Notes: generated by a model from the letters alone, not told the origin. 64,000 nt of DNA from Candidatus Parcubacteria bacterium (GCA_021731405.1 JAKFXN010000001.1:29857-93856); one strand, 5' to 3'; positions 2,784-44,100 are shown, counted from the first letter of the stretch. Translations and numbers: made by a program.

Positions 2784-2863
2784 AACGTTATTGCAGTATA
2801 CCAAAGCAAGCCTTTTCTGTGTCGTGGTTTGAGGTGCCAGAAGGCGGATGCTATAGTAGTGCC

Positions 2864-5800
2864 ATGTCAGAGTCTGAAACACTTCCGCCGACTTTTGTTC
2901 ACCTCCATGTTCACTCGCACTATTCGCTCTTGAATGCGCTTCCAACCCCAAAAGAGCTAGCTTACGCTGCCAAAGCAGACGGACAGACAGCACTGGCCAT
3001 TACCGACAACGGTGCTCTTTACGGCGCCATTGATTTTTATAAGGCCTGCACCAAAGAAGGTATCAAACCAATTATTGGTATTGACGCTTATTTAGCTCCG
3101 CGCAGTCGACATGACAAAGACGCGCAGATAGACAAACCGCGAGCACGAGTAGTGTTGCTCGCAAAAACATTTAAAGGTTACCAAAACCTCATTCAGCTGG
3201 TGACTCTCTCCAACCTTGAAGGTTTTTACTACAAACCAAGACTTGATGAAGAACTACTGACGAAATATAAAGATGATCTTATCTGTATCATTCCTTCTTT
3301 TGCGGGCGAAGTAGCCAAAGCACTTAAAGATGGCGACGAAGAATATGCGCGCAAAAAACTAACTTGGTACAAAGAAGTTTTTAAAGACGACTGTTACCTC
3401 GAAATCACCCACCATCCAGAAATCCTCGATCATGAAAAAAATCAGGAGCAAATTATAGCGCTTGCACGTGAGACCAACACTGAGCTGGTTGCTGCGCACG
3501 ACGTGTACTATCTCAAGCCCGAGGACCGTACCGCGCGCGAGACTCTGATTAAAATCCAAAATGGTGGAGTGGTTGACCTATCAAACGACATGGGTAGTGA
3601 AGAAGATTTTTCTTTCATTAGCCAAGCGAAAGCGGCCGAGCTATTTAAGGACACACCTGATGCCCTAGCAAACACCCTAAAGATTGCCGAGGCGTGTAAT
3701 GTCTCAATCGAAATCGGGACTCATTGGTACTTCCCTGATTACAAAATTGCCAATAACCGCACAGCAGACGATGAGCTTCAGATCACTGCCTATGCTGGAG
3801 TGCCGTGGCGAAAGCTTGATATTAATGACCCAGTGATTAAGACCCGTCTTGATTACGAACTTGAAGTCATTAAAAACAAAGGGTACTCAAAATACTTCCT
3901 CGTGGTAGGAGACCTCCTTCGTGAATCACGTAAGCGCGGTATTTTGACTACCATTCGAGGGTCAGTGGCGGGTTCACTCACCACCTACGTACTTGGTATT
4001 ACAAACGTAGATCCAATTGAATACAAACTTCCCTTTGAACGTTTCCTTAATCCAGAACGTCCGTCTGCTCCCGACATCGACATGGACTTTGCTGATAATC
4101 GGCGGGATGAAATTATTGAATACGCCAAAGAAAAATACGGCGCCGATAAAGTAGCGCAGATTGGTACGTTTGGAACCATGATGGCACGCGCGGCGGTGCG
4201 TGACGTGGCGCGTGCGCTTGGTCATCCATACTCTACTGGCGACCGTATCGCTAAGCTCATCCCGATGGGTAGCCAGGGTTTCCCGATGACGATTAAAAAG
4301 GCACTTGAGATAGAGCCCGACTTAGCTGAACTCTATAAAAAAGACACGGAGTCACGTGAAGTAATAGATCTCGCAAAACAAATCGAGGGTCGAGTGCGAC
4401 ACCTTGGTGTACATGCGGCTGGTGTCGTAATTGCACCAGAGCCCCTCTCGCAGTTTGTGCCTATTCAACCCGACCCGAAAACAGGAAAGTTCATTACCCA
4501 GTACGAAATGAAGTCGGTAGGTGAAGACGGTGTTGGCCTTTTAAAGTTCGACTTCCTCGGTATCAAAAACCTCGCCATTTTAGCTGACGCGGTAAAGCGA
4601 GTAAAAAAGATTCGCGAGATAGAAGTTGATATTGAAAATATTCCCCTTCAGGACCCGAAGACATTTAATATCCTCGCTCGCGGTGAGACGATGGGACTCT
4701 TCCAGCTCAATGGTTCTGGTATGACTGCCTTCCTCAAGCAGCTGAAGCCTTCAACTATTCACGACATCAATGCGATGGTGGCTCTCTATCGTCCAGGACC
4801 GATGGAATCAATCCCGCAATATATTGAACGTAAACACAATCCTGAACTCGTGTCGTATGTAGACCCACGCCTCAAGCCTATTCTTGAAGTGTCTTATGGT
4901 GTGATTACCTATCAGGACGATGTTATGACTATTGCGCGCGAGCTCGCGGGCTACTCGTGGCTTGAAGCAGACATGCTCCGAAAAGCGATGGGTAAGAAAA
5001 TTCCTGAAGTGATGGCGGCTGAAAAAAATAAACTCCTAACTGGTTTTGTGGAATACGGAAAACTCACCCCAAATATTTCAAATAAACTTTGGAGCCTTAT
5101 TGAACCTTTTGCGGCCTACGGGTTCAACAAAGCGCACGCAGCTTCATATGGTCGAGTGGCCTATCAGACTGCCTATATGAAGGCCAACTTCCCGGTTGAA
5201 TACATGTCAGCGGTTCTCACTGCCGACTCAGGTGATACTGAAAAGATTTCTGAAATTATTCGCGAGTGTGAACGCATGGGGATTGAGGTATTGCCACCAG
5301 ACATCAATGAATCATTTGCTGACTTTTCAGTGGTACCTGGTAAACAAACTATTCGCTTTGGACTCACTACCATCAAAAACTTCGGCGCTGGGGTAGCTGA
5401 TGCCATCATTACTGAGCGAAAGAAAAATGGTTCGTTCACTTCTATCTCTGATTTCCTGTCGCGCGTAAACGATCGCAACCTCAACAAAAAGTCGCTTGAA
5501 GCTCTTATTGTAACGGGAGCGCTTGATAGCTTTAATGAACGAGGCTTACTCTTTGCCAATCTTGAGACTCTTCTCACCTTCAACAAAGAACGTGTGTCAG
5601 AAAAAGAATCAGCCCAAGAATCTCTTTTTAGTTTTGGTGGTACAGTGGCACATGAACTGAATCTCCTACCATTTCCACCGGCCGCTAAACTGCAGAAACT
5701 AATTTGGGAGAAAGAGTTGCTTGGAGTATACGTGTCTGGTCATCCGCTTGATGAATACCAGAGTGAACTTGATAAGCGACCATCTATCCATTCCATTAAA

Positions 5801-6115
5801 CAGGCTGTAGCGGACAAGGAAGAAATCGCCATTCTGCGTATGAAGGGTGACTTGGTTACTGCCGGTATGGTCACCAGCGTTCGCGAGCTCATTACTAAAA
5901 AAGGCGACAAGATGGCTTTTGTTATGCTGGCAGATACCAAAGACGAAATTGAGATGGTAGCATTCCCGCGTACCTACCTCGAACTCAAAGATCTCTTTGT
6001 ACCAGGTACCTGTATTGCTGTTAAGGGCAAACTTTCTATCCGCAACGACGAACCAAGCATTGCTCTTGATAAAGCAAAGCGCTTAGGTGTGCCAGCAAAA
6101 TCTGAAGGGAACTAA
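2864..6115 (+). CDS. dnaE: DNA polymerase III alpha subunit
   Basis: 1084-1098 aa. PHP domain (FVHLHVHSHYSLLNA), polymerase core and OB fold. The ATG at 2864 is preferred over the GTG at 2819. Confidence 0.93.
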   Translation: MSESETLPPTFVHLHVHSHYSLLNALPTPKELAYAAKADGQTALAITDNGALYGAIDFYKACTKEGIKPIIGIDAYLAPRSRHDKDAQIDKPRARVVLLAKTFKGYQNLIQLVTLSNLEGFYYKPRLDEELLTKYKDDLICIIPSFAGEVAKALKDGDEEYARKKLTWYKEVFKDDCYLEITHHPEILDHEKNQEQIIALARETNTELVAAHDVYYLKPEDRTARETLIKIQNGGVVDLSNDMGSEEDFSFISQAKAAELFKDTPDALANTLKIAEACNVSIEIGTHWYFPDYKIANNRTADDELQITAYAGVPWRKLDINDPVIKTRLDYELEVIKNKGYSKYFLVVGDLLRESRKRGILTTIRGSVAGSLTTYVLGITNVDPIEYKLPFERFLNPERPSAPDIDMDFADNRRDEIIEYAKEKYGADKVAQIGTFGTMMARAAVRDVARALGHPYSTGDRIAKLIPMGSQGFPMTIKKALEIEPDLAELYKKDTESREVIDLAKQIEGRVRHLGVHAAGVVIAPEPLSQFVPIQPDPKTGKFITQYEMKSVGEDGVGLLKFDFLGIKNLAILADAVKRVKKIREIEVDIENIPLQDPKTFNILARGETMGLFQLNGSGMTAFLKQLKPSTIHDINAMVALYRPGPMESIPQYIERKHNPELVSYVDPRLKPILEVSYGVITYQDDVMTIARELAGYSWLEADMLRKAMGKKIPEVMAAEKNKLLTGFVEYGKLTPNISNKLWSLIEPFAAYGFNKAHAASYGRVAYQTAYMKANFPVEYMSAVLTADSGDTEKISEIIRECERMGIEVLPPDINESFADFSVVPGKQTIRFGLTTIKNFGAGVADAIITERKKNGSFTSISDFLSRVNDRNLNKKSLEALIVTGALDSFNERGLLFANLETLLTFNKERVSEKESAQESLFSFGGTVAHELNLLPFPPAAKLQKLIWEKELLGVYVSGHPLDEYQSELDKRPSIHSIKQAVADKEEIAILRMKGDLVTAGMVTSVRELITKKGDKMAFVMLADTKDEIEMVAFPRTYLELKDLFVPGTCIAVKGKLSIRNDEPSIALDKAKRLGVPAKSEGN

Positions 6116-8527: not shown

Positions 8528-11500
8528 TTACGCAACCACCTTAATCGCCTTCATGATAGCCATCTTAACTGCTGAAGCCTCGTCATTGTATGCACCATCA
8601 AGTGCGCCAGTGAGAGCTTCGATCATTTTAAGAATTTGCTCATTTGTAAGAGTCGCTGTTTCCTTCATAAGAAGTTCAGAGGCCTTAGCTTCGATACCAC
8701 GACGGATACGGTACACCGCGTCTAGGTCAGCAGCTGCGTCAGCTAGTGCAAACATTGGACGATTACCAATGAGTTCGTACGCAGCAACCACATTACCAGT
8801 TACAATCGCTTCAGCGAGAGAACCAGCACCTTGTGGTACTACAGCCGGAATGTAAGTAGACTCTACTGCCTTTTGTGCATTTACCGCGCAAACAACACAG
8901 AGTTCTTGCATCCGCTTTTCGTTAAGTACTACCCACCCGTCTTCTGCTGGAAACTGTGCCTTGGCAGCTACAATCACTTGATCAAGAGCGATAGTTCGCT
9001 CTGTTGTAGTGTTTGTAGTAGCGATAAAGTGACGAATAGCATCACTTGAAAGTAGTACGTGCTGTGCATGAGCATGATTTTCAATCATGGTCATTTCACT
9101 ATCATTGATTTGATGAGAAGCAACTTCAGTTACCGCCTCGTCTTCAACATGATTTACGTATCCTACCGCTGGCGTACCAGTTGGTAGATTTGTTGGCAAA
9201 GTTGAGATTGGCATTTCTGGTGCCTTTACACTTGCTACAAATACATCTGGTCGAACCTGTTCAGGAATAAAACGTGTACTTGGTTCTACTGCAGTACGTG
9301 CAAACGTAAGTCCGCCTAATGCATCTCGCTTGATTACAAGGAGGTATGCAACATAGAGGGCCCATGCCATAAGTAATGCGTAGAACAAAAGAGTCAAGAT
9401 TGGTCCAGCTTCAAATCCAGTGTACGGCACTTGAGTAAGTGCAATTCCGGCTACAAGCGGCTGGTCACGAACCTCTGTAATAACAATGTTGTCATCCATC
9501 TCAACATCAACTGTACACTTTCGTGTGGTTGAACCACGCTTCACTGTTAGAACATAAGTCGTATCTTCTTCTGGAGAAACGGTAATTTTTCCATCAAGAA
9601 GTCGATCCTTTGCTGCCTTCAAGAGTCCAGAAGTTGTCACGAGTGTTACGTCCTCTGTTTCATCAACAAGAGTAATATCAGTTGCTCGTGTACTTTCCCA
9701 TGTAAGTACTACCTTGTCTCCAGGATTAATTTTATTGTCAGAAATTGAAAGTTCACAACGTGGAGCAGATGAACCACCTCCGCCTCCACCTGTTCGTACT
9801 GTTACCGGTACTGGACAATTGATTGTCTCAGTTCCGTTTGATGCAGTAAGTGTGTAGGTAGTTGAATCAGTTGGAGACACTGTGGTTGAACCACTAAGGC
9901 CAGTAGCAGTGATTCCGTTATCAAACGAAACTGATGTTATGCCTGTTGTTGTCCAAGTAAGTGTTGATTCTCCACCACGTGTGATTGAGTTTGGATTTGC
10001 ACTGAGACTTACGTTTGCCGCACAAGTAAGCGGTGTTTGAACTGGAGGCTCAACCGGTACAGTCACCACACAACTATCTGAACTTGAAGCGTTTGCTGCA
10101 GTTAGGGTAAATGTCTGTGTTGCCGTAATACCGATGGTTGTAGAACCATTAAGTGCTACAGAACCAATAGTTGGAGCGATAGAAACGCCTGTTGCATTAG
10201 TAGTTGTCCAAGCAAGAGTAACGTTTCCACCTCCTACCGGAAGACTTGTTGGCGTAGCTGTTAGAGCTTCACACTTTGGAGCCTTCACATCTGGTTTTTC
10301 TGTAACCGCAATAGTTGCTGTACAAGTATCCTTTTGGTCACCTACGCCATACGCAGTAAGCGTGTATGTTGTAGTTGCAAGTGGAGTAATTGAACGAGTC
10401 CCTGAAGCTGTTGGTGTAACTTCTCCAAAACCTTGGTCAATAACGACTCGTGTTGCATTAGTAGTTGCCCAAGTAAGAGTAGCTGATTCGCCACGCTCAA
10501 TTGAAGTTGGTGATACAGTAAAGGCATCACAACTCGCTACTGGTACATGACAAGCCTTGTGAACTGACGTTTCAACAGTGTTACTGTAAGCCCAAGCGGT
10601 AAAGTTACTTAATTCGTAAGCTGTTGCTTTAGCAGTGTTTTTAATAATAGTGGTTGTATCACAGGCAAGGTTATCTTTAACCTTTCCTTTCCATACGATA
10701 GTACCTTCTTCACCTGGAGTGAGAGTATTTCCGTTCCAGTAAATGATCTTAGTAGCTGGTACATACACAGGAGTATTTCCATACCCAGCATTTAGATTTG
10801 GAGTATGAGTTTCACTGAGGTACGTGATGTTGGCATCATGAATATCAACAATCTTTACTCCACCGCCAGTACAATCTTTTGTACCAGTATTTTTAATCTT
10901 AATAGTATAGGTAAGTTCATCTCCTGGATTGGCTGTGGTTGATGAAACTGATTTTTCTAGAGTTAGCTCACAGTATTTAACTTCTTTTGGTACTACGGTG
11001 ATATTTGAATGACACTTTACTGTGTCTCCATTAGTACCTACAACAGTAAGTTCGTAGTTGGTGTTAGTCGTTAGCTGACCAGTATTTCTAGTTCCGTTAA
11101 GTGCTACTGCACCAAAACTCGAAAGGTTTGCTGTTGCAGCATTTTCAGTAGTCCAAGTTAGGTCTACTGATTCACCACTATTAATAGTTCGTGTTGCTGG
11201 TGCAAGGGTACACTTTGGTGCAAGTACTACTGGTGGTACACAAGTAACAATTACAGTTGGTTTACAACCAGGCTTTCCATCATGAGTTTCTGCAACAAGG
11301 GTGTAGGTAGTATTGGCTTGGATATTAGTATAGGTTCTTGAACCTGTATTACTCACCGTTTCCCCGTTAATCGTTACTTTAGAGTAACCACTAGTTGACC
11401 ATTCAAGAGTGATACTAGATCCCGCTGTAATAGTAGTAGCGGTAGTAGCGTAAAAGTTACAAGTTCTAAATGTATTGGTGTACGAACTTGATTGTGAAGA

Positions 11501-11959
11501 TGATGACCCTGATAGAGCCGGAATTGTAATTCCTGGAACGGTAAATGTAGGACTAGTGAATGTAGGTGTCGTAAACGTCGAATTATCTGAAAGTGACGGC
11601 ACCGTTAAAGCTGGCGTAGTCGCTTCAGGTACAGCGAGTTCCGGTGTCGAAACTGAAGGAACCTCAAGTACTGGTTCAACTACCTCAGGAACCACGATTA
11701 CTGGCTGAGTCAGGGTTGGAGCTGAAAGTGTTGGCGAACCAAAACTCGGCGTCGTCAGACCTGGAACCACAAGCTGGGCCATAGCCATATCTGGCGTAAG
11801 TACCGTGAGCTCGTTGTACGGATCGTAAGAACCGATATTGAGCGCTCCGAGGATAAACACAAAAAGCACCAATGCTGGTGTTATCTTTTTAAGAAAGTTT
11901 GTAACATTCATACTAAAAAATTTATAATTCATAATTTTTGTACTCCTACCTACACCCAT
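8528..11959 (-). CDS. Large membrane-spanning surface protein: N-terminal signal/anchor, Thr/Pro-rich linker, at least 6 Ig-like repeat domains (G-ES-TLTW-TTNAT...C pattern), a DUF11/CARDB-like domain, a VPYTG+TM+KRD segment, then a 290-aa C-terminal domain
   Basis: 1143 aa with repeated ~90-aa modules and a hydrophobic segment ILTLLFYALLMAWALYVAYLLV. Alternative starts are at 11932 and 11911 (MNVTNFLKK... signal-like). Confidence 0.75.
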   Translation of the reverse strand: MGVGRSTKIMNYKFFSMNVTNFLKKITPALVLFVFILGALNIGSYDPYNELTVLTPDMAMAQLVVPGLTTPSFGSPTLSAPTLTQPVIVVPEVVEPVLEVPSVSTPELAVPEATTPALTVPSLSDNSTFTTPTFTSPTFTVPGITIPALSGSSSSQSSSYTNTFRTCNFYATTATTITAGSSITLEWSTSGYSKVTINGETVSNTGSRTYTNIQANTTYTLVAETHDGKPGCKPTVIVTCVPPVVLAPKCTLAPATRTINSGESVDLTWTTENAATANLSSFGAVALNGTRNTGQLTTNTNYELTVVGTNGDTVKCHSNITVVPKEVKYCELTLEKSVSSTTANPGDELTYTIKIKNTGTKDCTGGGVKIVDIHDANITYLSETHTPNLNAGYGNTPVYVPATKIIYWNGNTLTPGEEGTIVWKGKVKDNLACDTTTIIKNTAKATAYELSNFTAWAYSNTVETSVHKACHVPVASCDAFTVSPTSIERGESATLTWATTNATRVVIDQGFGEVTPTASGTRSITPLATTTYTLTAYGVGDQKDTCTATIAVTEKPDVKAPKCEALTATPTSLPVGGGNVTLAWTTTNATGVSIAPTIGSVALNGSTTIGITATQTFTLTAANASSSDSCVVTVPVEPPVQTPLTCAANVSLSANPNSITRGGESTLTWTTTGITSVSFDNGITATGLSGSTTVSPTDSTTYTLTASNGTETINCPVPVTVRTGGGGGGSSAPRCELSISDNKINPGDKVVLTWESTRATDITLVDETEDVTLVTTSGLLKAAKDRLLDGKITVSPEEDTTYVLTVKRGSTTRKCTVDVEMDDNIVITEVRDQPLVAGIALTQVPYTGFEAGPILTLLFYALLMAWALYVAYLLVIKRDALGGLTFARTAVEPSTRFIPEQVRPDVFVASVKAPEMPISTLPTNLPTGTPAVGYVNHVEDEAVTEVASHQINDSEMTMIENHAHAQHVLLSSDAIRHFIATTNTTTERTIALDQVIVAAKAQFPAEDGWVVLNEKRMQELCVVCAVNAQKAVESTYIPAVVPQGAGSLAEAIVTGNVVAAYELIGNRPMFALADAAADLDAVYRIRRGIEAKASELLMKETATLTNEQILKMIEALTGALDGAYNDEASAVKMAIMKAIKVVA

Positions 11960-12129
11960 GTACGCAAGAGTATTTAAAGCTACGAATTTAAACGTAGTAA
12001 CAAGGAGCTAGAGAACGAGGACTTTCGTACGTTTGATTGTATTCTAATCAAAGCGTTTTGAGAACAATATTACGTAATATAATATATGATTATTTATGGT
12101 TTGTCAAGTTCTGGTCGCCAAAGGCGGCC

Positions 12130-12804
12130 TTAAAATAAAAGGGTCTCAATCAGTTCCGCCTCAACGATATAGCGGTCGTCTGTACTTCCAAAACTATTAC
12201 AGGTAGCAAGAAAAAGACGCTGTGTGTCGCCCGCAATTGGTACTGTCACATCAAGCGCATTCGCTCGATACACTTTGTCGACACGGTACGTAAATCGTCC
12301 TTCTATAGCTTCAATCACAATGGTGTCTCCCCATTTAAGGTTCTGAATACCATTAAAAGCTTGAAAGTTCTTATTTCGAACCGCTGGTAAGTAGCTTGAA
12401 TGACCTAAAATAAAGACTGTTCCGTCTTGTTCAAGTGTAGCTGAATCTGGATGTCGAACCACACCCTCAAGCAAGGAAGCATCAAGATCGGCTACATTTC
12501 GGGAGGTGGGGTTTAACACGGTGATAGTTCTATCAAGCGCTTCAATAGTCATAGTAAGCGGATAGACCGGAGTACTGATTTCTTCTGTCACTGTCAGTGG
12601 CAGGATTTCAGCTGCAGTTACATTTTCAGTAATTTCTTCTTCTACTAACTCTGGTTTTTCAACTTCTCGCACTAGCTCAGGCAAAAAGTCTAGCCACGCC
12701 AAAAGCGCATAACTGGCCAAAAAGACCACAAAAAACGCTACGAGAAAAGCAATTTTGCGTTTCAGCACAGCATCCACAAAATCCGTCCATGAGTGCACTT
12801 CCAT
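12130..12804 (-). CDS. Sortase family transpeptidase (membrane-anchored)
   Basis: N-terminal TM, His motif FILGHSSY, catalytic Cys motif LFLATCNSF (TLxTC-like) and conserved Arg DRYIVEAEL. Confidence 0.8.
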   Translation of the reverse strand: MEVHSWTDFVDAVLKRKIAFLVAFFVVFLASYALLAWLDFLPELVREVEKPELVEEEITENVTAAEILPLTVTEEISTPVYPLTMTIEALDRTITVLNPTSRNVADLDASLLEGVVRHPDSATLEQDGTVFILGHSSYLPAVRNKNFQAFNGIQNLKWGDTIVIEAIEGRFTYRVDKVYRANALDVTVPIAGDTQRLFLATCNSFGSTDDRYIVEAELIETLLF

Positions 12805-12911
12805 ATAGTTATAATAATAGCACGATTTAAGCTAAAAGTCAATATACCTTACCATTCCCCGTTCTTTGAGACAAAAATTGACAAGCTCCCCTGCTGTGGT
12901 AGTTTTTTTGT

Positions 12912-13967
12912 ATGAATAACGTCACAAGAGAGCGCAAGGAGAGCGTTTTGAAGTCACTCGCCCTCATAGGTCTATTAGGAGTAATACTTTTTATTGCATG
13001 GGTTTCAGTCCAAATTGTAGCTGTTTTCCCAACAGCGGTTTCTTCACTAGCCTCACTGGCTGATAGTGTCTATAACTATAATCCCCGTGGAGTTTCTGAT
13101 CTAAAGCTCCAACCGGTAGCAGAGAGTGTTGAGACTGGTGGTGAACTCAGTCTTGCGTGGGACAAACGCTTTGAAACTGGTACATACGCCTTCACCTTCT
13201 TGTGCGAAGAAGGACTTTCCGTAGAAATCAAAACTACCGAGAGTACTTTTGAAAATGCGGAGTGTGGAAAATCATATACACTCGGCACAGTAGATAATGC
13301 GCAAGTGCAGGTAAATTCAGAAAAGAAAGGTCAAGCACCATTTACGTACACAATTAGTTACTTCAAAAACAACGTCTACACTCCATCTTCACAAAGTTCA
13401 CAATCAATTTTGGTAACCAATAGCCGCTTCACTGAACCAGGACCAAATGTAAACGTGGTAAACGTCCCAGCACCAGAACCTGAAACCTCTACCGAAACAA
13501 CCACCGAGACTGCAGCTCCGGAAGTTGTCGTCGTAACTCCAGCACCAGTGGCTGCTGTAAAACCACAGCCAACGTATGAGTATGTGTATCAAGTACCTGT
13601 CTCAGATCCAAAGGGCTTCACTGATCTAAAAGTAACCTACTTAGGTATTGGTTCAAAAAATCGAAACGGCTCCTTTACAAACAGCGGCACGCTTAAGGAA
13701 GGAGTCGCTGGTGTAGTACAGTTCTCAGTTCAAAACATCGGCACAAAGACTTCAGACACATGGTCATTTGAAGCTGAACTGCCTGGAGGAACAGACTACA
13801 CTTCTCGCACACAAAATGCTCTCAAGCCTAACGAGCGAGCTATCTTTACTCTCACCTTCCCCGCTCTATCGAAAACCTCAGTTGAAACTTTCTCAGTCGA
13901 AGCTACAGTAACGGGTGACACCAACACCAAGAACGACACGTTCACTTCCACAACCATTGTTCTTTAA
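12912..13967 (+). CDS. Membrane-anchored secreted protein with a C-terminal CARDB/DUF11-like beta-sandwich domain
   Basis: N-terminal TM (LALIGLLGVILFIAWVSVQIVAVF), a Thr/Glu/Pro linker and a C-terminal segment VQFSVQNIGTKTSDTWSFEAELPGG...ERAIFTLTF. Confidence 0.6.
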   Translation: MNNVTRERKESVLKSLALIGLLGVILFIAWVSVQIVAVFPTAVSSLASLADSVYNYNPRGVSDLKLQPVAESVETGGELSLAWDKRFETGTYAFTFLCEEGLSVEIKTTESTFENAECGKSYTLGTVDNAQVQVNSEKKGQAPFTYTISYFKNNVYTPSSQSSQSILVTNSRFTEPGPNVNVVNVPAPEPETSTETTTETAAPEVVVVTPAPVAAVKPQPTYEYVYQVPVSDPKGFTDLKVTYLGIGSKNRNGSFTNSGTLKEGVAGVVQFSVQNIGTKTSDTWSFEAELPGGTDYTSRTQNALKPNERAIFTLTFPALSKTSVETFSVEATVTGDTNTKNDTFTSTTIVL

Positions 13968-38108: not shown

Positions 38109-41100
38109 TTAAATACCTCCACCGCCGCCAGAGCTACCGCCGCCTGCTTGGTGATACACCCTGACCTCAAGAGCATCTAGACGAATGGTATTGGAAGCTG
38201 GTTGCGCCGATACTCGAAGTCGGAAATTAGCTCCGCTAAACTGAGCTGCTGTCCAAGACCGTCCCCAAAGATCACTCGCACCACCCACAAGGTAGACTAC
38301 GTCAGAACCTGCCATAGTTGGAGTAGCTTTAGCAGTAGTGTATGAGTTACCACTATCCCAAGAGAGTGAGACATCAATTGTTCCAGCTGCCGTACTACCA
38401 GAAGCATCGAGCTTCACCGCAATACCTTGAATAGTATTTCCGTCAGGAACATTGAAGTTAAAGCCATTGTATGACTGACGAAGATTGGTTGAAGCGGCAG
38501 TGGCATAGGTACCATCAGACAAGAGGGCGTTTTCTCCATTAGTCCACTCATTATGACTGTCTCCAGTCGCGTTTGGACGAGCGAAGTCTGGGTCAGCAGC
38601 AATATTTTCTCCGTCTTCTTCCTCGCCAGCGCCCACTCCTCCACCAGTCTCACCTCCCTCAACAACACCTGCTCCTGCTGGTGCAGGATCTCCAATACGG
38701 GCAACATTACCTCCTCCACCTCCGCTACTATTCCTAAAATGTTGGGAAGTATTCACCGTCGTTAAAATGACCGGTGCGTAAACCGAGGTGGCCCCAAGAG
38801 CAGTTAACCCGAGTGCTGGAAGACTGAAGACTACCGAGTCTCCAAGCTGGGTCCCAGTAGTGTCAGCAGTGACCAGGTAATTGACTGACGTAGAGGCAAC
38901 AAAGTTTTGACTGAAGGTCACTGCACCATGTTGTCCATTGAAAGTCAGAATTCCGTCTCCATCAAGAAGGAGGTCTCCTCCATCCAAAACTCCATCGCTA
39001 TCATTGTCACGATAGAGATTGAAGTCGGAAAGATTGCTACTATCAAGACCTTGTACCCCACTAAGAGAGACCACCAGGTCAGTCACCGTTATCACTTCAC
39101 TCTGTCCGACCAGATTGAAGGCAAAGAGCGGAACATCATCTTTGTTTTGAGCACTAAACTCATTTTCTACTTGTCCCGCTGCATGATTTGCAATCGTAAC
39201 ACTGCCAGTAATACGGATTGTTTGTGTATCAAGTGCTGCTGGTTCACCGGCTGTATTACCGTCTGTATGAAGCTCAAAAGCGCTCGTAGTGGTAGAGACA
39301 GCGGCAAAAGATCCGGCCGTTATTCCGTTTACAATAAGCGTATCTGAGGCAGCGAAGTTTTCTGTCACGGTAAGCACCAGAGTTGCTCCGGCTTCTTCAT
39401 AAGATGCTGTAGTTGAAACCTTCCCCGCTGCCGTTCCGCCAAAGGTAAGATTGGTCGTACCGGTATTGAAACGGAAGTTTGAAGTAGTGGTCGCAATACT
39501 GATGCGAATATCATTTGCTGTAGTTATAGACGGACTAACACTCTCGGCAATAACCACTGCTCCGAGTGTGGTTGTGGCCTGCCCAACATAGAAGTGATAC
39601 GGGGCGGCAGAATAAAATTCTATTGCTTCTGCTGGCGTAAACGGCCAATTCACATTGTTGCCACTATCAAGACATCCTATATCACAAACCACAGTAGATA
39701 CATTAACGTTGTTTGAATCTTTTACATCTATGTTTGCTAAAGTTGTAGTAGCTGGATTTACATACCAATATTGACCATTTGTGCTTGAACGTAACAAATG
39801 CCTTTCACTTGAACTCGTTCCGGTAAAATTCCATTCTCCTTCAATAGTGGTAAGGGTACCTGCTCCGAAAGTGGTGGTGGCAGTTACTGTCGCATTCTTT
39901 GTCAGGTCAAAAAATGTCGTTGTTCCATTAAGGGCATGTACAGCACCAAGCAGGATAACTTCGCCCCCATTTGCGTCAAAAGCACCGTTATTAGTAAAGT
40001 CTCCGTTTGTGACCGAAAGCGCGCTTGAGGGTGCTGTAACACTCTTTCCCGCAGCCACTGTGAAACTTGTCGTTGAAGCAGTCGCTGTCAAAGTAACTCC
40101 GCCACCTCGACGAAGCACTGCGTCATCATCACCAACATACAAAGTTCCTCTACTGGTATCTATAGTCATCGCCCCAGTAAAGGTGGTGTCGCTTATAGTC
40201 TGGACCAAAGCCCAGTCAGCAGCAGAGTCACAGGCTGTAGATGTCTCACAACGAAACAAAATTTGTCCAGAACCAAAGCCACCAGCGTACAAAAAACCAT
40301 GACCTGAATCAAATTGGAGTGCGGTTATACCACCTAAAGTATCTCCCACATCCGTATCAAGTCCAGTAATGGTAGTAAAATCACCTGAAGCATTACAATC
40401 ACTGGAGAGTGGGCAGCGATAGATAATATCTGAAGATCCACCCCCGCCAGCGTACAAAACTTGATTGGTTGTATCAATTTCTATTGGAGTAAGATAGTCT
40501 ATTCCAGCATTATTGATCACAAATGAGAAGTCGCCATTTGCGTCACAGCTTGAGGATAGGACGCAGCGATAGATAGCACCAGCCCCACCATACCCGACAG
40601 TCACATACATCACATCGTTTACCTCATCAATTACAACATCACCCGAGTATCCAGAAATGGCAAAGCTTGAGAAATCACCTTGGGCATTACAGTCACTGGA
40701 AAGTGGGCAGCGGTAAAAGACGTTGTAATCACCACCGTATAAAACATTATTTTGTGTATCTATACCGAGGGCATAAAAACCATTTCCGTCTGCGTCATAC
40801 ACTTCACTAAAGTCACCCGAAGCATTACAGTCTGAAGACAAGACACAGCGATAAAGAGCACCTGAAGCAGGACTTCCAACACCAACATACAGAGCACCGT
40901 TTACTTCATCTACTACTATTGAGTAGACAATCTGATGTGTCGTATCATACGCCACTGCAAAGTCTCCACTGGCGTCACAGTTTGTGGTGAGGATACAGCG
41001 ATATAAGATTCCGTTGTCTCCCGAACCCGCATACAAGACGTCATTCGTTTCATCAATTGCAAAGACTCGGAACCATACCTGTCCACTTGCGTAAGCAGTA

Positions 41101-44100
41101 GTAAATGTCTCAGTCCCTACTCCAGAAACTTCAAGGTTTGCAAAAGCTGAAGTCCCAGTCATTGTCCCAGAAGCTACTCCTCCCAACGATGTTAAGAATA
41201 CCGTCCCGTTATTGGCATCAAAAGTTCCGCTATTTACATAATTCCCATTTACGATTAATTCCGCTGGTGCCTCGACAGTACCCTGCGTAATGGTTAAATT
41301 ATTCACTTCGGTGCTGGTTCCGAGGAGTAAGCCCGACCCGCCAACAGTAAGATGATTAAGGGCATTTGCCCCAACTAAGTCTCCCGAAAATTCTGGAGAA
41401 AGTTGGAAAGACATAATCTCACAACCAATAGCTGAGCCAGTGACAGATGAACAAGCGGTAAGACTTCCTTCTTTACCGAGGTAGAGATAATTACCACCAA
41501 CACTTAATGCCCCCATTGCAACCACTCCCGTTGCACCGGTAGGAGAACCGTTTGAGTCACGACCCGCGACATAGATAGGGTTTGTAGAAGAAGCGAGGTT
41601 ATAGACTTGCAGTTCACAACCAACGGCTGAATCTGGAATTTGGGAACAGGTCGTAGCATTATCTTCTTTACCAAGAAAGAGATGCTCATTTTTTATCACG
41701 ACTGAATATACTAACCCGGTAAACGTACCAACAGAACCACCGACGTCACGACCGGCACGATAAATAGGGTTCGTACTTGAAGAAATATCGTACACCTGAA
41801 GTTCGCAGTTATATGCTGCGCCTGCAACTTGAGAACAGGCAGAAGAACCTCCAGCGTTGGCAATATATAAATAATTGCCTGACTTGGCCATGCTTAAAAA
41901 TACATTGCCACTACTTCCTCCAGCATCTCCCTCAGCGTCACGACCGGCACGATAAATAGGGTTTGTACTTGAAGAAATATCGTACACCTGAAGCTCGCAA
42001 CCCGCCGCTGAACCTGGTGTCGGAGAACAAGCTGCAGTGTCACCGCCCGTACTGGCATACAGATAATCCCCATTAACAACTAAACTATAGACACTATTTA
42101 CACCCGAACCTGTTGATGACCCAGTACTATCACGTCCCGCCACATAGACCATATTTGTACTTGAAGAGATATCAAACACCATCAGTTCACAGCCGTCTCC
42201 CGCACCTGACGTTTGCCCGCACGAAGCACTGTTGAGTTCCTTCCCTGCATACAAATAATTACCTGACGCCGCTAAACTTAAGAAAAATAGCTGTGAGTTA
42301 CCATTGAGTGCACCATCATGATCTATTGAGGTAAGGAAGACAGGGTTTGTCGGATCAGTAATATCAAAAGACATCAGTTCACAACCCTGAGCGTTGGTCC
42401 CACTTTGGGTACAAGCGGTATTTACCCCTCCCTTACCAACAAACAAAATGTTGTCTTTAATGGTAAATGAAGAAATAAACTCCGCAAAGTTACCGTCCGC
42501 GGATCCGTCCACATCTCGCCCCGCGACGTAAATCATGTTGGTTGGATCAGAAACATCATACACTTGAATCTCACAGCCGATCGCCGAACCAGGAGTTTGT
42601 GAACAAGGAGTAGCCTCCCCAGCAGTACCAATAAATAAATAGTTGCCGTAGGTGATTGATTTATTGATAGTAACTGCGTCGGTACCTGTTGCTGATCCGT
42701 CCATATCCACCGCTCCAGAAAAACCAACAAGTGCTGTATCTGTATATATCTGTCCACCATTATTATCGAAGGTGCCTCCGTTGTGAAAGCTTCCAACAGT
42801 TAAATTTGTTGGCGCAACAAGACTTGAGCCAGCGCTGATGTAAAGATTTGAAGTTGAAGCAGAAGTAGTAGCAATGCTGTACGATGAAGAATTATCAAAA
42901 TCTAATGTAGAAAAGCTACTAGTTGCTGTCAAAATCCCATCAACCACTCCCGACCCAGTCATGTATACCACACCACCATTAGCATTAAATATTCCTCTAT
43001 TGATGAAATCCCCAGAAGCTTGTATAGATGGTGCTGAAACAAATTCTCCCCTGCTAATCAAAAAATCTCCATTAGAAACAAATTCTTCTCCGTTTAAGAA
43101 ATGAAGAATATCCGCATCAGACACAGTGTCGTAAGTAAAGTTAAGCGGATTTATTTGTACCGTAGATGAAGCACCGTACGCAATCACATGCTCATAGTAA
43201 AGCGGTATATTTCGTACCCCTATCCCCGTACTATACCCACTTACGAACGTAGTGGCGTCATTAGCATCACCATCAAGCCATATTACAAAAGGGGTACCGC
43301 TCGTAGCTGAAGAAACGTCTGCATTTGAAAATTCCCAAGCGCCACTACTATTTGTGGTAGTACTAAAAATACTTGGCGTTGAAGTACCGACCCACATCTT
43401 GATAGTTTTTCCCGAACCAGCGGTCGTTACGCCTGCGTCAGTGTACAATGTACCGGCAAAGTACGGAGACGGGGTTTCGCGGATAGCTAAGTGAATAGCC
43501 GCTGCGTCGTCAGTTGTGGCGTAGGTATAACCAACCGATCGTGCGCCTTGGCCAGCGGTAGTTTCCCGACCGAGCATACTAGCCTGCGTAGCAGCGAGCA
43601 CAATACTCTGCAGCGCAGTTGTGTTTGCGCCAGCAGTTAGGGCTGTGTTTCTACCAGTATAGGCTCCTACATACCGCATACTATTAGTACCCAAAGAACC
43701 ATCGTCTACTGACTGTTCACTGTACGCTAGGTTGTTTTGGAGTAATACATATCCGGTTGTTTCTGTATTCCCTGCTGCTTGTACAGAAGCTGCATTTGCG
43801 TACATTACCGTTGCATTATTGGTACGTGTTACCTCAATAGTCTGACTCCCCGTTGGGACACTTGACCCAAGAAAGAATGCGGTCACTCGAGCAGGTTCAG
43901 TGGTAGTGTCGATAGCCTCTGACACTTGCGTCATTGTTACTCCACCATAAGTTACTGAAGTAATGTAGTCTGCATTTGCTATTGTAGTCACAAACACGAG
44001 CACACCTTCAGGTGAGCCGGTATCTCCATGTGTCCAACTAAATGAAGTGGAGGAAGCGTTACCGCTTGTACCAGTATGACTTTCTGAAGAAGTACTGTGG

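What the first reader, a model, noticed from the sequence alone, without database searches (positions are those of the whole stretch)
8528..12804. Sortase adjacent to a 1143-aa Ig-repeat protein with an internal sorting-signal-like VPYTG-TM-KRD followed by a 290-aa domain
The sortase gene (TLxTC-like LATCNSF, His, Arg) sits directly upstream of, and is co-oriented with, a protein containing LTQVPYTG, then a hydrophobic helix, then KRD. That is the layout of a cell-wall sorting signal, with VPxTG as a known LPxTG variant. Instead of ending there, the protein continues for 290 residues; this domain also contains an NLPTGTP motif. Sortase cleavage here would separate an extracellular Ig-repeat stalk from an intracellular domain, which is an unusual processing arrangement.
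Basis: inference. Interest (0 to 1): 0.55.

Follow-up and report, generated by a model that had tools for sequence, protein, structure and literature searches.

The report
Sortase substrate with internal sorting signal
A candidate-phyla-radiation bacterium encodes, next to its only local sortase, a large surface protein whose sortase-type anchoring signal (VPYTG, membrane helix, basic residues) sits inside the protein and is followed by a conserved, previously undescribed cytoplasmic domain; this layout is conserved in hundreds of relatives, so it is a real variant of cell-wall protein sorting and not a chance motif.

Summary
ORF 8528-11959(-) encodes 1143 aa: an N-terminal signal, a P/T/S-rich stretch, six Cys-bracketed Ig-like repeats plus DUF11, VPYTG (aa 844-848), a TM helix (854-876), KRD, a ~70-aa disordered linker and a ~190-aa two-lobed domain. 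The co-oriented upstream gene is a Pfam sortase; its His/Cys/Arg are invariant in 72 orthologs.

All 101 long representatives of the family carry [VILT]P[YHQE]TG-F(E/D)AGP-TM-basic, 262-407 aa before the C-terminus. In essentially every locus with enough flank, the sortase and a divergent 351-aa membrane protein lie alongside. All loci are Patescibacteria (Paceibacteria).

The C-terminal domain has no Pfam, NCBIfam or PDB sequence match. One lobe has an AAA+-lid-like fold. NLPTG is a degenerate cytoplasmic linear motif, not a second sortase site.

The most likely reading is that sortase cleaves VPYT|G, anchors the Ig stalk to the wall and leaves a membrane stub carrying the cytoplasmic domain. 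Cleavage is inferred, not shown.

Unexpectedly, some clades split the gene at a conserved A9 run that needs a -1 shift. In clade A the unshifted product ends ...TM-KKKVS*, a canonical sorting signal. This points to programmed slippage that yields two isoforms.

I rate it a new variant of a known kind, interest about 0.6.

The parts
8528..11959 (-). Gene for the 1143-aa type I membrane/surface protein: ectodomain, internal sorting signal, cytoplasmic domain.
   Evidence: ORF list. The exact sequence is in public collections, unnamed. Homologs are called 'hypothetical protein' in Patescibacteria.
11825..11896 (-). N-terminal hydrophobic segment (aa 22-45), a signal peptide or signal anchor for export.
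   Evidence: Hydropathy scan. Cys-bracketed repeats downstream imply an extracytoplasmic location.
11480..11782 (-). Pro/Thr/Ser/Val-rich low-complexity spacer (aa ~60-160).
   Evidence: Sequence. Weak Extensin-like Pfam hit, below cut-off.
10976..11473 (-). Ig-like repeats R1-R2 (aa 163-328), each bracketed by a Cys pair.
   Evidence: Repeat alignment with shared C..TLxW.T..G..TTYTLTA..C.
10619..10966 (-). DUF11 / B_ant_repeat beta-sandwich domain (aa 332-447).
   Evidence: Pfam PF01345, E = 1.5e-10. NCBIfam TIGR01451, E = 7.7e-10.
9482..10543 (-). Ig-like repeats R3-R6 (aa 473-826). R6 is the membrane-proximal module and is shared with paralogs.
   Evidence: Repeat alignment. The homologous last module is seen in family members and paralogs.
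9401..9463 (-). Conserved but disordered juxtamembrane block QPLVAGIALTQ-VPYTG-FEAGP (aa 833-853).
   Evidence: Consensus RDQQPLVAGIxLTQVPYTGFEAGP across the family. pLDDT is below 50 for the segment preceding the motif in the tail model.
9416..9430 (-). VPYTG pentapeptide (aa 844-848), the putative sortase cleavage site (T|G).
   Evidence: Only xPxTG+TM site in the window. Counts in 101 representatives: VPYTG 81, IPYTG 9, LPYTG 4, others 7; P, T and G are invariant.
9332..9400 (-). Stop-transfer TM helix (aa 854-876).
   Evidence: Hydropathy above 2.2. AF2 predicts a helix with pLDDT ~95.
9323..9331 (-). Basic cluster KRD (aa 877-879) on the cytoplasmic side of the TM.
   Evidence: The sequence shows it directly. 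K/R are conserved at this place in relatives.
9110..9322 (-). Disordered cytoplasmic linker (aa 880-950). It carries the RPDVF and NLPTG..VGY short linear motifs (NLPTG = nt 9176-9190).
   Evidence: pLDDT below 50. NLP(T/V)(G/A) is found in ~85 of 113 linkers, ~33 aa before the domain; exact NLPTG occurs in only 36.
8870..9103 (-). Cytoplasmic domain, N-lobe (aa 953-1030): helix-strand-helix x2, with an AAA+-lid/histone-like fold.
8534..8818 (-). Cytoplasmic domain, C-lobe (aa 1048-1142): six-helix bundle.
   Evidence: AF2 pLDDT above 90. Invariant GSLAEAI, RPM.ALADA, LDG.Y..E.AVK. Weak whole-domain Foldseek matches to clamp-loader gamma/delta/delta' (E = 8e-3 to 5e-2).
12130..12804 (-). Membrane-anchored sortase (224 aa). 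TM at aa 17-40 (nt 12685-12756). H135 (12400-12402), C202 (12199-12201), R211 (12172-12174).
   Evidence: Pfam Sortase, E = 6e-18. Catalytic residues are invariant in 72 orthologs. Nearest solved structures are class D SrtD 2ln7 and 4d70. Scores are below all NCBIfam class cut-offs.
12079..12107 (-). Sigma-70-like promoter match (TTGACA-17-TATTAT, 11/12) in the 170-nt gap between the sortase and the substrate gene.
   Evidence: Consensus scan only. The count of promoter-like sites in the region is not above the shuffled expectation.
12912..13967 (+). Divergently transcribed 351-aa N-terminally anchored ecto-protein ('p351'), a conserved third member of the cassette.
   Evidence: Found divergent from the sortase in essentially every locus with flank. 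64 orthologs share the TM, SSLAxLA, a Cys pair and a CARDB-like C-terminus, and have no sorting motif. No Pfam hit.

Best explanation
The 1143-aa protein is a sortase-dependent surface protein with a sorting signal that is internal, not C-terminal.

Proposed steps, with their basis:
1. The N-terminal signal drives export of the Ig-repeat ectodomain. This is inferred from hydropathy and the Cys-pair repeats.
2. The helix at aa 854-876 stops transfer, and KRD plus the remaining 264 aa stay in the cytoplasm. This is inferred from the positive-inside rule and a single TM.
3. The neighbouring membrane-anchored sortase (H135/C202/R211) recognises the disordered, conserved block ...LTQ-VPYTG-FEAGP, cleaves between T847 and G848, and transfers the ectodomain to a cell-wall precursor. 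This is inferred by analogy with LPXTG sorting.
4. A membrane stub is left behind: GFEAGP, the TM, a disordered linker with the NLPTG..VGY motif, and a ~190-aa two-lobed helical domain. This follows from step 3.

The role of the cytoplasmic domain is the weakest step. I favour a protein-protein docking or oligomerisation module (AAA+-lid-like lobe plus helical bundle, no ATPase core). It would position or cluster the precursor before cleavage, or mark completed anchoring afterwards. I do not think it is an enzyme.

In relatives (not in this window), a conserved A9 run can uncouple the two halves. It would give a canonical short substrate by default and the domain-bearing form after a -1 shift.
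For: Anatomy at the stated coordinates.

Sortase:
- Identified by Pfam.
- Catalytic H/C/R are invariant in 72 orthologs.

Motif conservation:
- 101 of 101 representatives of at least 500 aa have [VILT]P[YHQE]TG + F(E/D)AGP + TM + basic residues, 262-407 aa from the C-terminus.
- P, T and G are invariant and X is variable, as in LPXTG.
- The block preceding the motif is conserved yet predicted disordered, as expected for an enzyme recognition peptide.

Cassette: p351(-) / sortase(+) / substrate(+) recurs in essentially all of ~70 species-level loci with flank. There is no second sortase in the window or in any locus.

The signal is shared by different proteins. Adjacent paralogs carry VPHTG, VPETG or LPE/DTG + TM + R/K with tails of ~24-85 aa and no C-domain.

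Clade A: nine distinct sequences from independent assemblies have a zero-frame product ending VPYTGF(E/D)AGP-TM-KKKVS*. That is a canonical C-terminal sorting signal.

C-domain:
- 504 clusters at 50% identity match the profile (E <= 1e-3), and in the long proteins the domain is always C-terminal.
- The AF2 model is confident, mean pLDDT 87.
- Fold hits are limited to AAA+ lids and clamp-loader domains II-III.
Against: - No biochemical or proteomic evidence of cleavage is available.
- The protein fails the classical definition of a cell-wall sorting signal, which requires a short charged tail at the extreme C-terminus. It also gets no hit to any NCBIfam family other than the DUF11-type repeat TIGR01451.
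- Conservation extends well beyond the pentapeptide (RDQQPLVAGISLTQ...FEAGP). That is unusual for sortase signals and could reflect another partner.
- The whole region (PheT-GyrB-...-ThrRS-DnaE-RNase HII) is syntenic across the class, so sortase adjacency may partly reflect frozen gene order.
- Variants L046-L048 keep sortase, p351 and a TM-anchored C-domain but lack the ectodomain and VPYTG. The C-domain-sortase link therefore does not strictly need the motif.
- The sortase falls below the cut-offs of every curated class: 43.8 and 43 bits against 140 and 165 for the two class D models, and 26.5-31.5 bits against 160 for the class E and class C models.
Confidence: 0.6

Rival explanations
1. 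The protein is an uncleaved bitopic membrane protein, an adhesin or receptor. The conserved juxtamembrane block, including VPYTG, would be a structural or partner-binding element (for example for p351). The cytoplasmic domain would do the signalling or anchoring. The sortase would serve other substrates and be adjacent only through conserved gene order.
For: - Conservation extends ~11 residues upstream and 5 downstream of the pentapeptide.
- The whole neighbourhood is syntenic.
- L046-L048 keep sortase, p351 and the C-domain without VPYTG.
- No NCBIfam family other than the DUF11-type repeat TIGR01451 is hit.
- A large conserved cytoplasmic domain is typical of bitopic receptors, not of sortase substrates.
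Against: - The pattern of invariance (P, T, G fixed; position 1 hydrophobic; X free) matches LPXTG specifically.
- The same pentapeptide+TM+basic module is reused by paralogs with unrelated flanks and tails.
- The clade A zero-frame product is a canonical sorting signal.
- No other xPxTG+TM candidate exists in the 64-kb window.
Confidence: 0.25
2. The sortase does act on VPYTG, but as a polymerase or cross-linker. It would join the Thr to a lysine or N-terminus of another protein (p351 or another copy of the stalk protein). The result would be a fibre or surface lattice, not a peptidoglycan-anchored monomer.
For: - p351 is a conserved, divergently transcribed ecto-protein in the same cassette.
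- The Ig-like repeat architecture resembles pilins and fibrillar adhesins.
- The sortase is not class A. It is weakly nearest to class D and E, with a weaker class C hit.
Against: - There is a single sortase per locus, with no pilin-type partner genes or second sortase.
- No pilin motif or E-box was looked for successfully, and p351 has no sorting motif.
- There is no evidence of isopeptide domains.
Confidence: 0.1
3. The finding is an artefact. Either it is a chance LPXTG-like string next to a hydrophobic stretch, or an assembly or annotation fusion of a normal sortase substrate with a downstream cytoplasmic gene.
For: In some relatives the two halves are called as separate ORFs.
Against: - The window gene is one uninterrupted frame with no homopolymer of 7 or more.
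- 71 of 79 loci are in frame.
- All 101 long representatives are fused.
- The identical 1143-aa protein occurs on independent contigs.
- The split cases break only at A9 or A7 runs and keep both halves conserved.
Confidence: 0.02

Closest known systems
LPXTG-type cell-wall sorting signals processed by sortase in Gram-positive bacteria (established knowledge; reviewed e.g. in PMC8225981, PMC4617865)
   Same: N-terminal export signal, a pentapeptide with invariant P, T and G, a following hydrophobic helix, basic residues on the cytoplasmic side, and an adjacent membrane-anchored Cys transpeptidase with the His/Cys/Arg triad.
   Different: The signal is internal. It is followed by ~264 cytoplasmic residues that include a conserved ~190-aa folded domain, not a tail of a few residues. 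The pentapeptide is VPYTG within a longer conserved block. The sortase fits no curated class. The organism is a patescibacterium.
Sensing of the membrane-retained C-peptide left by sortase A cleavage in Streptococcus gordonii (Hall et al. 2019, as cited and summarised in PMC11326707)
   Same: The idea that the C-terminal remnant of a sortase substrate stays in the membrane and carries information about anchoring.
   Different: There the remnant is only the short TM and tail peptide, and it is sensed in trans by a histidine kinase. Here the remnant would itself carry a large conserved cytoplasmic domain. No kinase is implicated.
AAA+ lid domains and clamp-loader domains II-III (tau/gamma, delta, delta'), and the N-terminal domain of Pol epsilon/alpha subunit B
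   Different: There is no P-loop ATPase domain. No sequence-level similarity was found (Pfam, NCBIfam, PDB). Identity is 10-18%, and rmsd is large for two-lobe superpositions. This is a fold analogy, not membership.
Programmed -1 frameshifting or transcriptional slippage at A-runs: E. coli dnaX A_AAA_AAG, Thermus thermophilus dnaX A9, IS-element transposases (my own knowledge, not checked in the paper library)
   Same: In relatives, a conserved A9 run lies in a short overlap between two conserved frames. A -1 shift, or one extra A in the mRNA, joins them. Two products with different C-termini are predicted.
   Different: It is not present in the window's own gene. The long product needs the shift, which is the reverse of E. 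coli dnaX. No conserved stimulatory stem-loop or SD-like element was seen. The mechanism is untested.

Membership tests
Sortase (Pfam PF04203) - the upstream gene | Sortase domain above the Pfam gathering score | tested here: met
   65.2 bits against a cut-off of 26.6, E = 6e-18.
Sortase (Pfam PF04203) - the upstream gene | Catalytic His, TLxTC-type Cys and Arg, plus an N-terminal membrane anchor | tested here: met
   H135, C202 (LATC) and R211 are invariant in 72 orthologs. TM at aa 17-40.
Curated sortase classes C, D, E and GN (NCBIfam) | Score above the class model's cut-off | tested here: not met
   Best scores: class D 43.8 and 43.0 bits (cut-offs 140 and 165), class E 31.5 (160), class C 26.5 (160), GN 19.8 (158). 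No class A, B or F model matched at E <= 0.1. Nearest solved structures are class D, 2ln7 (E = 1.5e-6) and 4d70. It is therefore an unclassified patescibacterial sortase.
Cell-wall sorting signal (LPXTG type) | LPXTG-like pentapeptide with conserved P, T and G | tested here: met
   VPYTG. P, T and G are invariant, position 1 is V/I/L/T and X is Y/H/Q/E in 101 of 101 representatives.
Cell-wall sorting signal (LPXTG type) | Hydrophobic helix right after the motif, then basic residues | tested here: met
   TM at aa 854-876 and KRD at 877-879. Conserved in relatives.
Cell-wall sorting signal (LPXTG type) | Signal lies at the extreme C-terminus, with a charged tail of only a few residues | tested here: not met
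   264 residues follow KRD in the window protein, and 262-407 residues follow the motif in all long relatives. It is met only by the zero-frame product of clade A relatives...KKKVS*.
Cell-wall sorting signal (LPXTG type) | Match to a curated LPXTG-anchor model (NCBIfam) | tested here: not met
   NCBIfam, scanned at E <= 0.1 on the whole protein, returned only the DUF11-type repeat TIGR01451.
Cell-wall sorting signal (LPXTG type) | Cleavage between T and G and covalent linkage to peptidoglycan | not testable with these tools
   Needs an enzyme assay or mass spectrometry.
AAA+ / clamp-loader subunits | P-loop ATPase core (Walker A/B) preceding the lid | tested here: not met
   The cytoplasmic part holds only a disordered linker and the two helical lobes. 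There are no AAA Pfam hits in 41 members apart from one stray weak hit.
AAA+ / clamp-loader subunits | Lid-like helix-strand-helix fold | tested here: met
Programmed frameshift / transcriptional slippage site (relatives only) | Slippery homopolymer conserved across species at the frame junction, with both frames under selection | tested here: met
   - Clade A: 9 distinct sequences, all with A9.
- Clade B: 3 sequences, all with A9.
- L003 has A9 and L079 has A7.
- All need a -1 shift.
- The C-domain keeps the family invariants.
- 8 of the 14 A/T runs of 9 or more in 1.14 Mb fall in this ~300-nt linker.
Programmed frameshift / transcriptional slippage site (relatives only) | Shifted product or heterogeneous mRNA actually made | not testable with these tools
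   Needs metatranscriptome or proteome reads across the A9 run.
Programmed frameshift / transcriptional slippage site (relatives only) | Present in the window's gene | tested here: not met
   There is no homopolymer of 7 or more in 8528-11959, and the frame is continuous.

The most novel reading that the evidence does not exclude
The cassette is a sortase-coupled transmembrane device, not a simple anchor. Sortase transfers the Ig stalk to the wall and thereby generates a membrane stub. The stub's conserved AAA+-lid-like cytoplasmic domain and NLPTG..VGY linker motif then recruit or release a cytoplasmic partner, so that anchoring is reported to, or organised from, the inside of the cell. In some Paceibacteria clades a programmed A9 slippage site sets the ratio between a canonical short-tailed substrate and the domain-bearing isoform.
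Probability: 0.2. Interest if true: 0.8.

Novelty: new variant of a known kind. Interest (0 to 1): 0.62.

Why it matters
Sortase sorting signals are defined as C-terminal, and the leftover peptide is usually treated as waste. Here a whole bacterial class (Paceibacteria, ultra-small symbionts whose surface biology is almost unknown) conserves a sortase cassette with a different layout. The signal is internal, and the leftover would be a membrane-tethered, highly conserved cytoplasmic domain of unknown function.

This matters in four ways:
- It gives a concrete candidate for the sortase substrate and recognition motif (VPYTG) in Patescibacteria, where sortase is enriched but substrates are undescribed.
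- It raises the testable idea that wall anchoring is coupled to a cytoplasmic event.
- It defines a new protein domain family of about 500 clusters.
- It reveals recurrent A9 recoding or split sites that would produce canonical and extended isoforms from one locus. Such sites also mislead automated annotation, because many database entries for this family are artificial fragments.

Tried and rejected
- NLPTG as a second sortase site: rejected. It lies in a disordered cytoplasmic linker. Only 36 of 113 linkers have exact NLPTG, NLPVA and NLPTA are common, and LPTG lacks the X position.
- Stand-alone C-domain genes as evidence of a true two-gene system: the short database hits are mostly contig fragments or ORFs cut at A-run frame breaks.
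- Homopolymer assembly error as the explanation of the splits: unlikely for clades A and B. There are 12 distinct sequences from NCBI, ENA, JGI and Logan, all with exactly A9, none with A8 or A10, and no in-frame 'KKKGFLGF' in 249 proteins. It remains possible for the single long-read contig L003.
- A conserved stimulatory RNA structure downstream of the A9: none seen.
- Sequence-level identification of the C-domain: nothing consistent from Pfam, NCBIfam or a PDB profile search, nor from Pfam scans of all 41 aligned members at E <= 10.
- Clamp-loader homology: only fold-level and weak. No dnaX, holA or holB is in the window to compare with, so it was not pursued.
- The AFDB50 fold library was unavailable.
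- A metagenome scan with clade-A protein P0082 found nothing. The DNA-pattern scan gave 3 true hits out of 10.
- BLAST self-comparison of the ectodomain found no repeats. The repeats were shown by alignment of the Cys-delimited segments.
- Literature searches for VPYTG, sortase in CPR/Patescibacteria, internal LPXTG and slippage in CPR found no prior description.
- p351 as a hidden substrate: it has no sorting-type motif.

Full report
**1. Observation**

The ORF at 12130-12804 encodes a 224-aa protein.
- It has an N-terminal TM helix at aa 17-40.
- It has a Pfam Sortase domain (65 bits, E = 6e-18).

The ORF at 8528-11959 encodes 1143 aa, laid out as follows.
- A hydrophobic N-terminal segment (aa 22-45).
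- A Pro/Thr/Ser-rich spacer.
- Six ~85-aa repeats, each bracketed by a Cys pair and sharing C..TLxW.T..G..TTYTLTA..C.
- A DUF11 beta-sandwich domain (E = 1.5e-10).
- The block QPLVAGIALTQ-VPYTG-FEAGP, with VPYTG at aa 844-848 (nt 9416-9430).
- A strongly hydrophobic helix (aa 854-876), then KRD, then 264 more residues.

This is the only xPxTG motif followed by a TM segment in all six frames of the 64-kb window. The gene has no homopolymer of 7 or more and is one continuous frame. The identical protein occurs on independent public contigs without a name.

**2. What follows the membrane helix**

An AlphaFold model of aa 827-1143, built with 30 homologs, gives three parts.
- A confident TM helix.
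- A ~70-aa linker with pLDDT below 50.
- A folded domain.

A model of the domain alone (41-sequence alignment, mean pLDDT 87) has two lobes joined by a disordered loop.
- The N-lobe is helix-strand-helix x2, aa ~953-1030.
- The C-lobe is a six-helix bundle, aa ~1048-1142.

The domain is very conserved. Invariant or near-invariant blocks are LLSSDA.R.F, FP.EDGW.V.N..R, GSLAEAI, RPM.ALADA..D.D..YR and LDG.Y..E.AVK. Yet no sequence-based search identifies it.
- Pfam and NCBIfam give no hit.
- A profile search of PDB sequences gives nothing.
- Pfam scans of all 41 aligned members at E <= 10 give nothing consistent.

- Lids of RuvB, DnaA and Lon, and histone-like proteins.

Foldseek gives weak whole-length matches to clamp-loader gamma, delta and delta' (E = 8e-3 to 5e-2). 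There is no ATPase core. I take this as a fold resemblance: a lid-like helix-strand-helix lobe plus a helical bundle. That suggests a protein-protein interaction or oligomerisation module. It is not evidence of membership.

- Across 113 linkers, the conserved element is P.NLP(T/V)(G/A)...VGY, about 33 residues before the domain.
- Exact NLPTG occurs in only 36 of them.

It is a short linear motif, not a sortase site.

**3. Relatives**

The tail (aa 830-1143) finds 152 proteins in the 5.8-billion set. A profile of the domain finds 504 clusters at 50% identity (157 at E <= 1e-30). In the long proteins (600-1900 aa) the domain lies at the extreme C-terminus.

All 101 representatives of at least 500 aa carry [VILT]P[YHQE]TG, then F(E/D)AGP, a TM helix and basic residues, 262-407 residues before the C-terminus.
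- Motif counts: VPYTG 81, IPYTG 9, LPYTG 4, others 7.
- P, T and G never vary, position 1 stays hydrophobic, and X varies. This is exactly the constraint pattern of LPXTG.

The ~11 residues before the motif are also conserved (RDQQPLVAGISLTQ) but predicted disordered. That fits a recognition peptide.

A scan of one genome per GTDB species returned 80 loci. All are Patescibacteria, labelled Paceibacteria, Kaiserbacteria, Nomurabacteria or Parcubacteria. The closest is Ca. Kaiserbacteria RIFCSPLOWO2_01_FULL_45_25, at 79% identity over the domain and 70% over the sortase.

**4. Neighbourhood**

In essentially every locus with enough flank, the order is PheT - GyrB - [351-aa membrane protein, opposite strand] - sortase - (sometimes small ORFs) - the VPYTG protein - ThrRS - DnaE - RNase HII.
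- The sortase His135, Cys202 and Arg211 are invariant in 72 orthologs.
- No second sortase occurs in the window or in any locus.
- The sortase scores far below the cut-offs of all curated classes. The best is class D, at 43.8 and 43 bits against cut-offs of 140 and 165 for the two class D models.
- The nearest solved structures are class D enzymes.
- The 351-aa protein ('p351') is an N-terminally anchored ecto-protein with a Cys pair and a CARDB-like C-terminal part. It has no sorting motif.

Because the entire region is syntenic, adjacency alone is weaker evidence of functional coupling than it would be in a fluid genome.

Two further observations strengthen the sorting-signal reading.
- In some loci a paralogous surface protein lies just downstream. 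It carries VPHTG, VPETG or LPE/DTG + TM + R/K with short or different tails and no C-domain (L077, L068, L084, L085). The pentapeptide-TM-basic module is therefore shared by different proteins, as a sorting signal should be.
- The recoding sites described in section 5.

**5. Split genes and A9 runs (relatives only)**

In 8 of 79 loci the signal and the domain are in different frames. Each case needs a -1 shift to join them, and each break sits at an A-run: A9 in seven loci and A7 in one. By contrast, 55 of the 71 in-frame loci have no A5 or longer run in that interval. Of only 14 A/T runs of 9 or more in 1.14 Mb of family loci, 8 fall in this ~300-nt linker.

Clade A:
- It comprises L005/L006, L053, L055, L090, L092, L096, L097/L098, L099 and L100.
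- That is nine distinct sequences, from NCBI, ENA, JGI and Logan assemblies.
- All have exactly A9 immediately after the TM helix.
- The zero frame reads ...VPYTGF(E/D)AGP-TM-(L/I/V)KKKVS-stop, a canonical C-terminal sorting signal.
- The -1 frame reads KKK(G/S)FLGF... and continues through the linker into a fully conserved C-domain.
- In L090 the -1 frame is closed by TAA immediately before the run. The permissible shift window is therefore about 18 nt.
- At least 22 protein clusters of this clade are all annotated as separate short ORFs. No long protein carries 'KKKGFLGF' in frame.

Other sites:
- Clade B (L004, L070, L074) has a conserved A9 just before the domain.
- L003 has A9 in mid-linker. 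It is a single long-read contig, so error is possible.
- L079 has A7.

No conserved downstream structure was found.

The best reading is programmed transcriptional slippage or -1 ribosomal frameshifting. An in-frame A_AAA_AAA or A_AAA_AAG heptamer is present, and the conserved run length of 9 in two different phases leans towards transcriptional slippage. The alternatives are a true gene split with re-initiation, or DNA-level phase variation. No A8 or A10 allele was seen, which argues against phase variation. In every case the two halves are separable, and the default product in clade A is a classical sortase substrate.

The window's own gene is of the fused, in-frame type.

**6. Variants that limit the model**

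- L046-L048 lack the ectodomain and VPYTG. A 328-aa protein with two TM helices, the linker motif and the C-domain directly follows an intact sortase. The link between sortase, p351 and the C-domain therefore survives loss of the motif. This hints that the C-domain is more than a passive tail.
- L083-L086 end after the N-lobe.

**7. Mechanism**

*Shown:* the anatomy, the conservation, the cassette, the intact catalytic residues and the fold of the domain.

*Inferred:*
- Topology is ectodomain out, C-domain in.
- Sortase cleaves at VPYT|G and transfers the stalk to the wall.
- A stub (GFEAGP, TM, linker, C-domain) is retained in the membrane.

*Speculative:* the domain docks or oligomerises precursors, or signals completed anchoring.

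| Reading | Confidence |
|---|---|
| Sortase-processed surface protein with an internal signal | ~0.6 |
| Uncleaved bitopic protein with a structural juxtamembrane motif | ~0.25 |
| Sortase-mediated protein-protein cross-linking | ~0.1 |
| Artefact | ~0.02 |

**8. Comparison with what is known**

The system works like LPXTG sorting, but it fails one defining feature: the signal is not at the extreme C-terminus with a short tail. It hits no NCBIfam family other than the DUF11-type repeat, and the sortase fits no curated class.

The nearest concept for a functional remnant is the S. gordonii C-peptide, which is sensed by a two-component kinase (Hall et al. 2019, as summarised in PMC11326707). 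There the remnant is only the TM peptide.

Méheust et al. (PMC6744442) report that sortase is enriched in CPR but describe no substrates. Searches for VPYTG, internal LPXTG, sortase in Patescibacteria and slippage in CPR found no prior description. That is a limited, open-access-only check.

**9. Verdict**

- It is a new variant of a known kind, with an undescribed cytoplasmic domain family and an unexpected set of conserved A9 recoding or split sites in relatives.
- Interest is 0.62.

Noticed in passing
Relatives only: L005 8034, L053 7815, L055 7818, L090, L092, L096, L097/L098, L099, L100 (clade A); L004 1355, L070 1454, L074 4122 (clade B); L003 7825; L079 7746: The gene is split at conserved A9 runs (A7 in L079) in the post-TM linker, and every case needs a -1 shift to join the halves. 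In clade A the zero-frame product ends TM-KKKVS*, a canonical sorting signal. This looks like programmed transcriptional slippage or -1 frameshifting. It also causes widespread mis-annotation of the C-domain as separate short ORFs.
   Followed up: yes
L046, L047 (7575-8561), L048: A variant cassette has no Ig ectodomain and no VPYTG. A 328-aa protein with two TM helices, the NLPV..VGY linker and the C-domain directly follows an intact sortase, and p351 is still divergent upstream.
   Followed up: partly
L083-L086 (e.g. L085 6150-8240 and 8147-9559): These family members end after the N-lobe of the cytoplasmic domain. They are followed by a paralogous Ig-repeat protein with NLP(D/E)TG + TM + RR/RK + an ~85-aa tail containing a second TM. 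Similar short-tailed paralogs occur in L077 (VPHTG) and L068 (VPETG).
   Followed up: partly
window 12912-13967 (+): A 351-aa N-terminally anchored ecto-protein with no Pfam hit is transcribed divergently from the sortase. It is conserved at that position in essentially all related loci and is a likely third component of the cassette. Its role is unknown.
   Followed up: partly
window 38109-44231 (-) and 44253-53558 (-): Two adjacent giant ORFs (2040 and 3101 aa) have no Pfam family at E <= 1e-3 and no xPxTG+TM signal. They may be further large surface proteins of this CPR genome.
   Followed up: no
L003 11020-15552: In one relative the DnaE (Pol III alpha) gene is 1510 aa and carries intein-splicing and LAGLIDADG Pfam hits. 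The window's DnaE (2819-6115, 1098 aa) has none.
   Followed up: no
L033 7241: An in-frame A9 (AKKKL) occurs at the same post-TM position in a fused-type family member. Both alternative frames stop within 4-8 codons, so slippage there would give short-tailed forms. This may be chance.
   Followed up: partly
window 12079-12107 (-) and 12814-12842 (-): Near-consensus sigma-70-like hexamers lie upstream of the substrate gene (11/12) and of the sortase (10/12 with TG). No convincing terminator lies between them. These are consensus matches only, and the count is not above the shuffled expectation.
   Followed up: no
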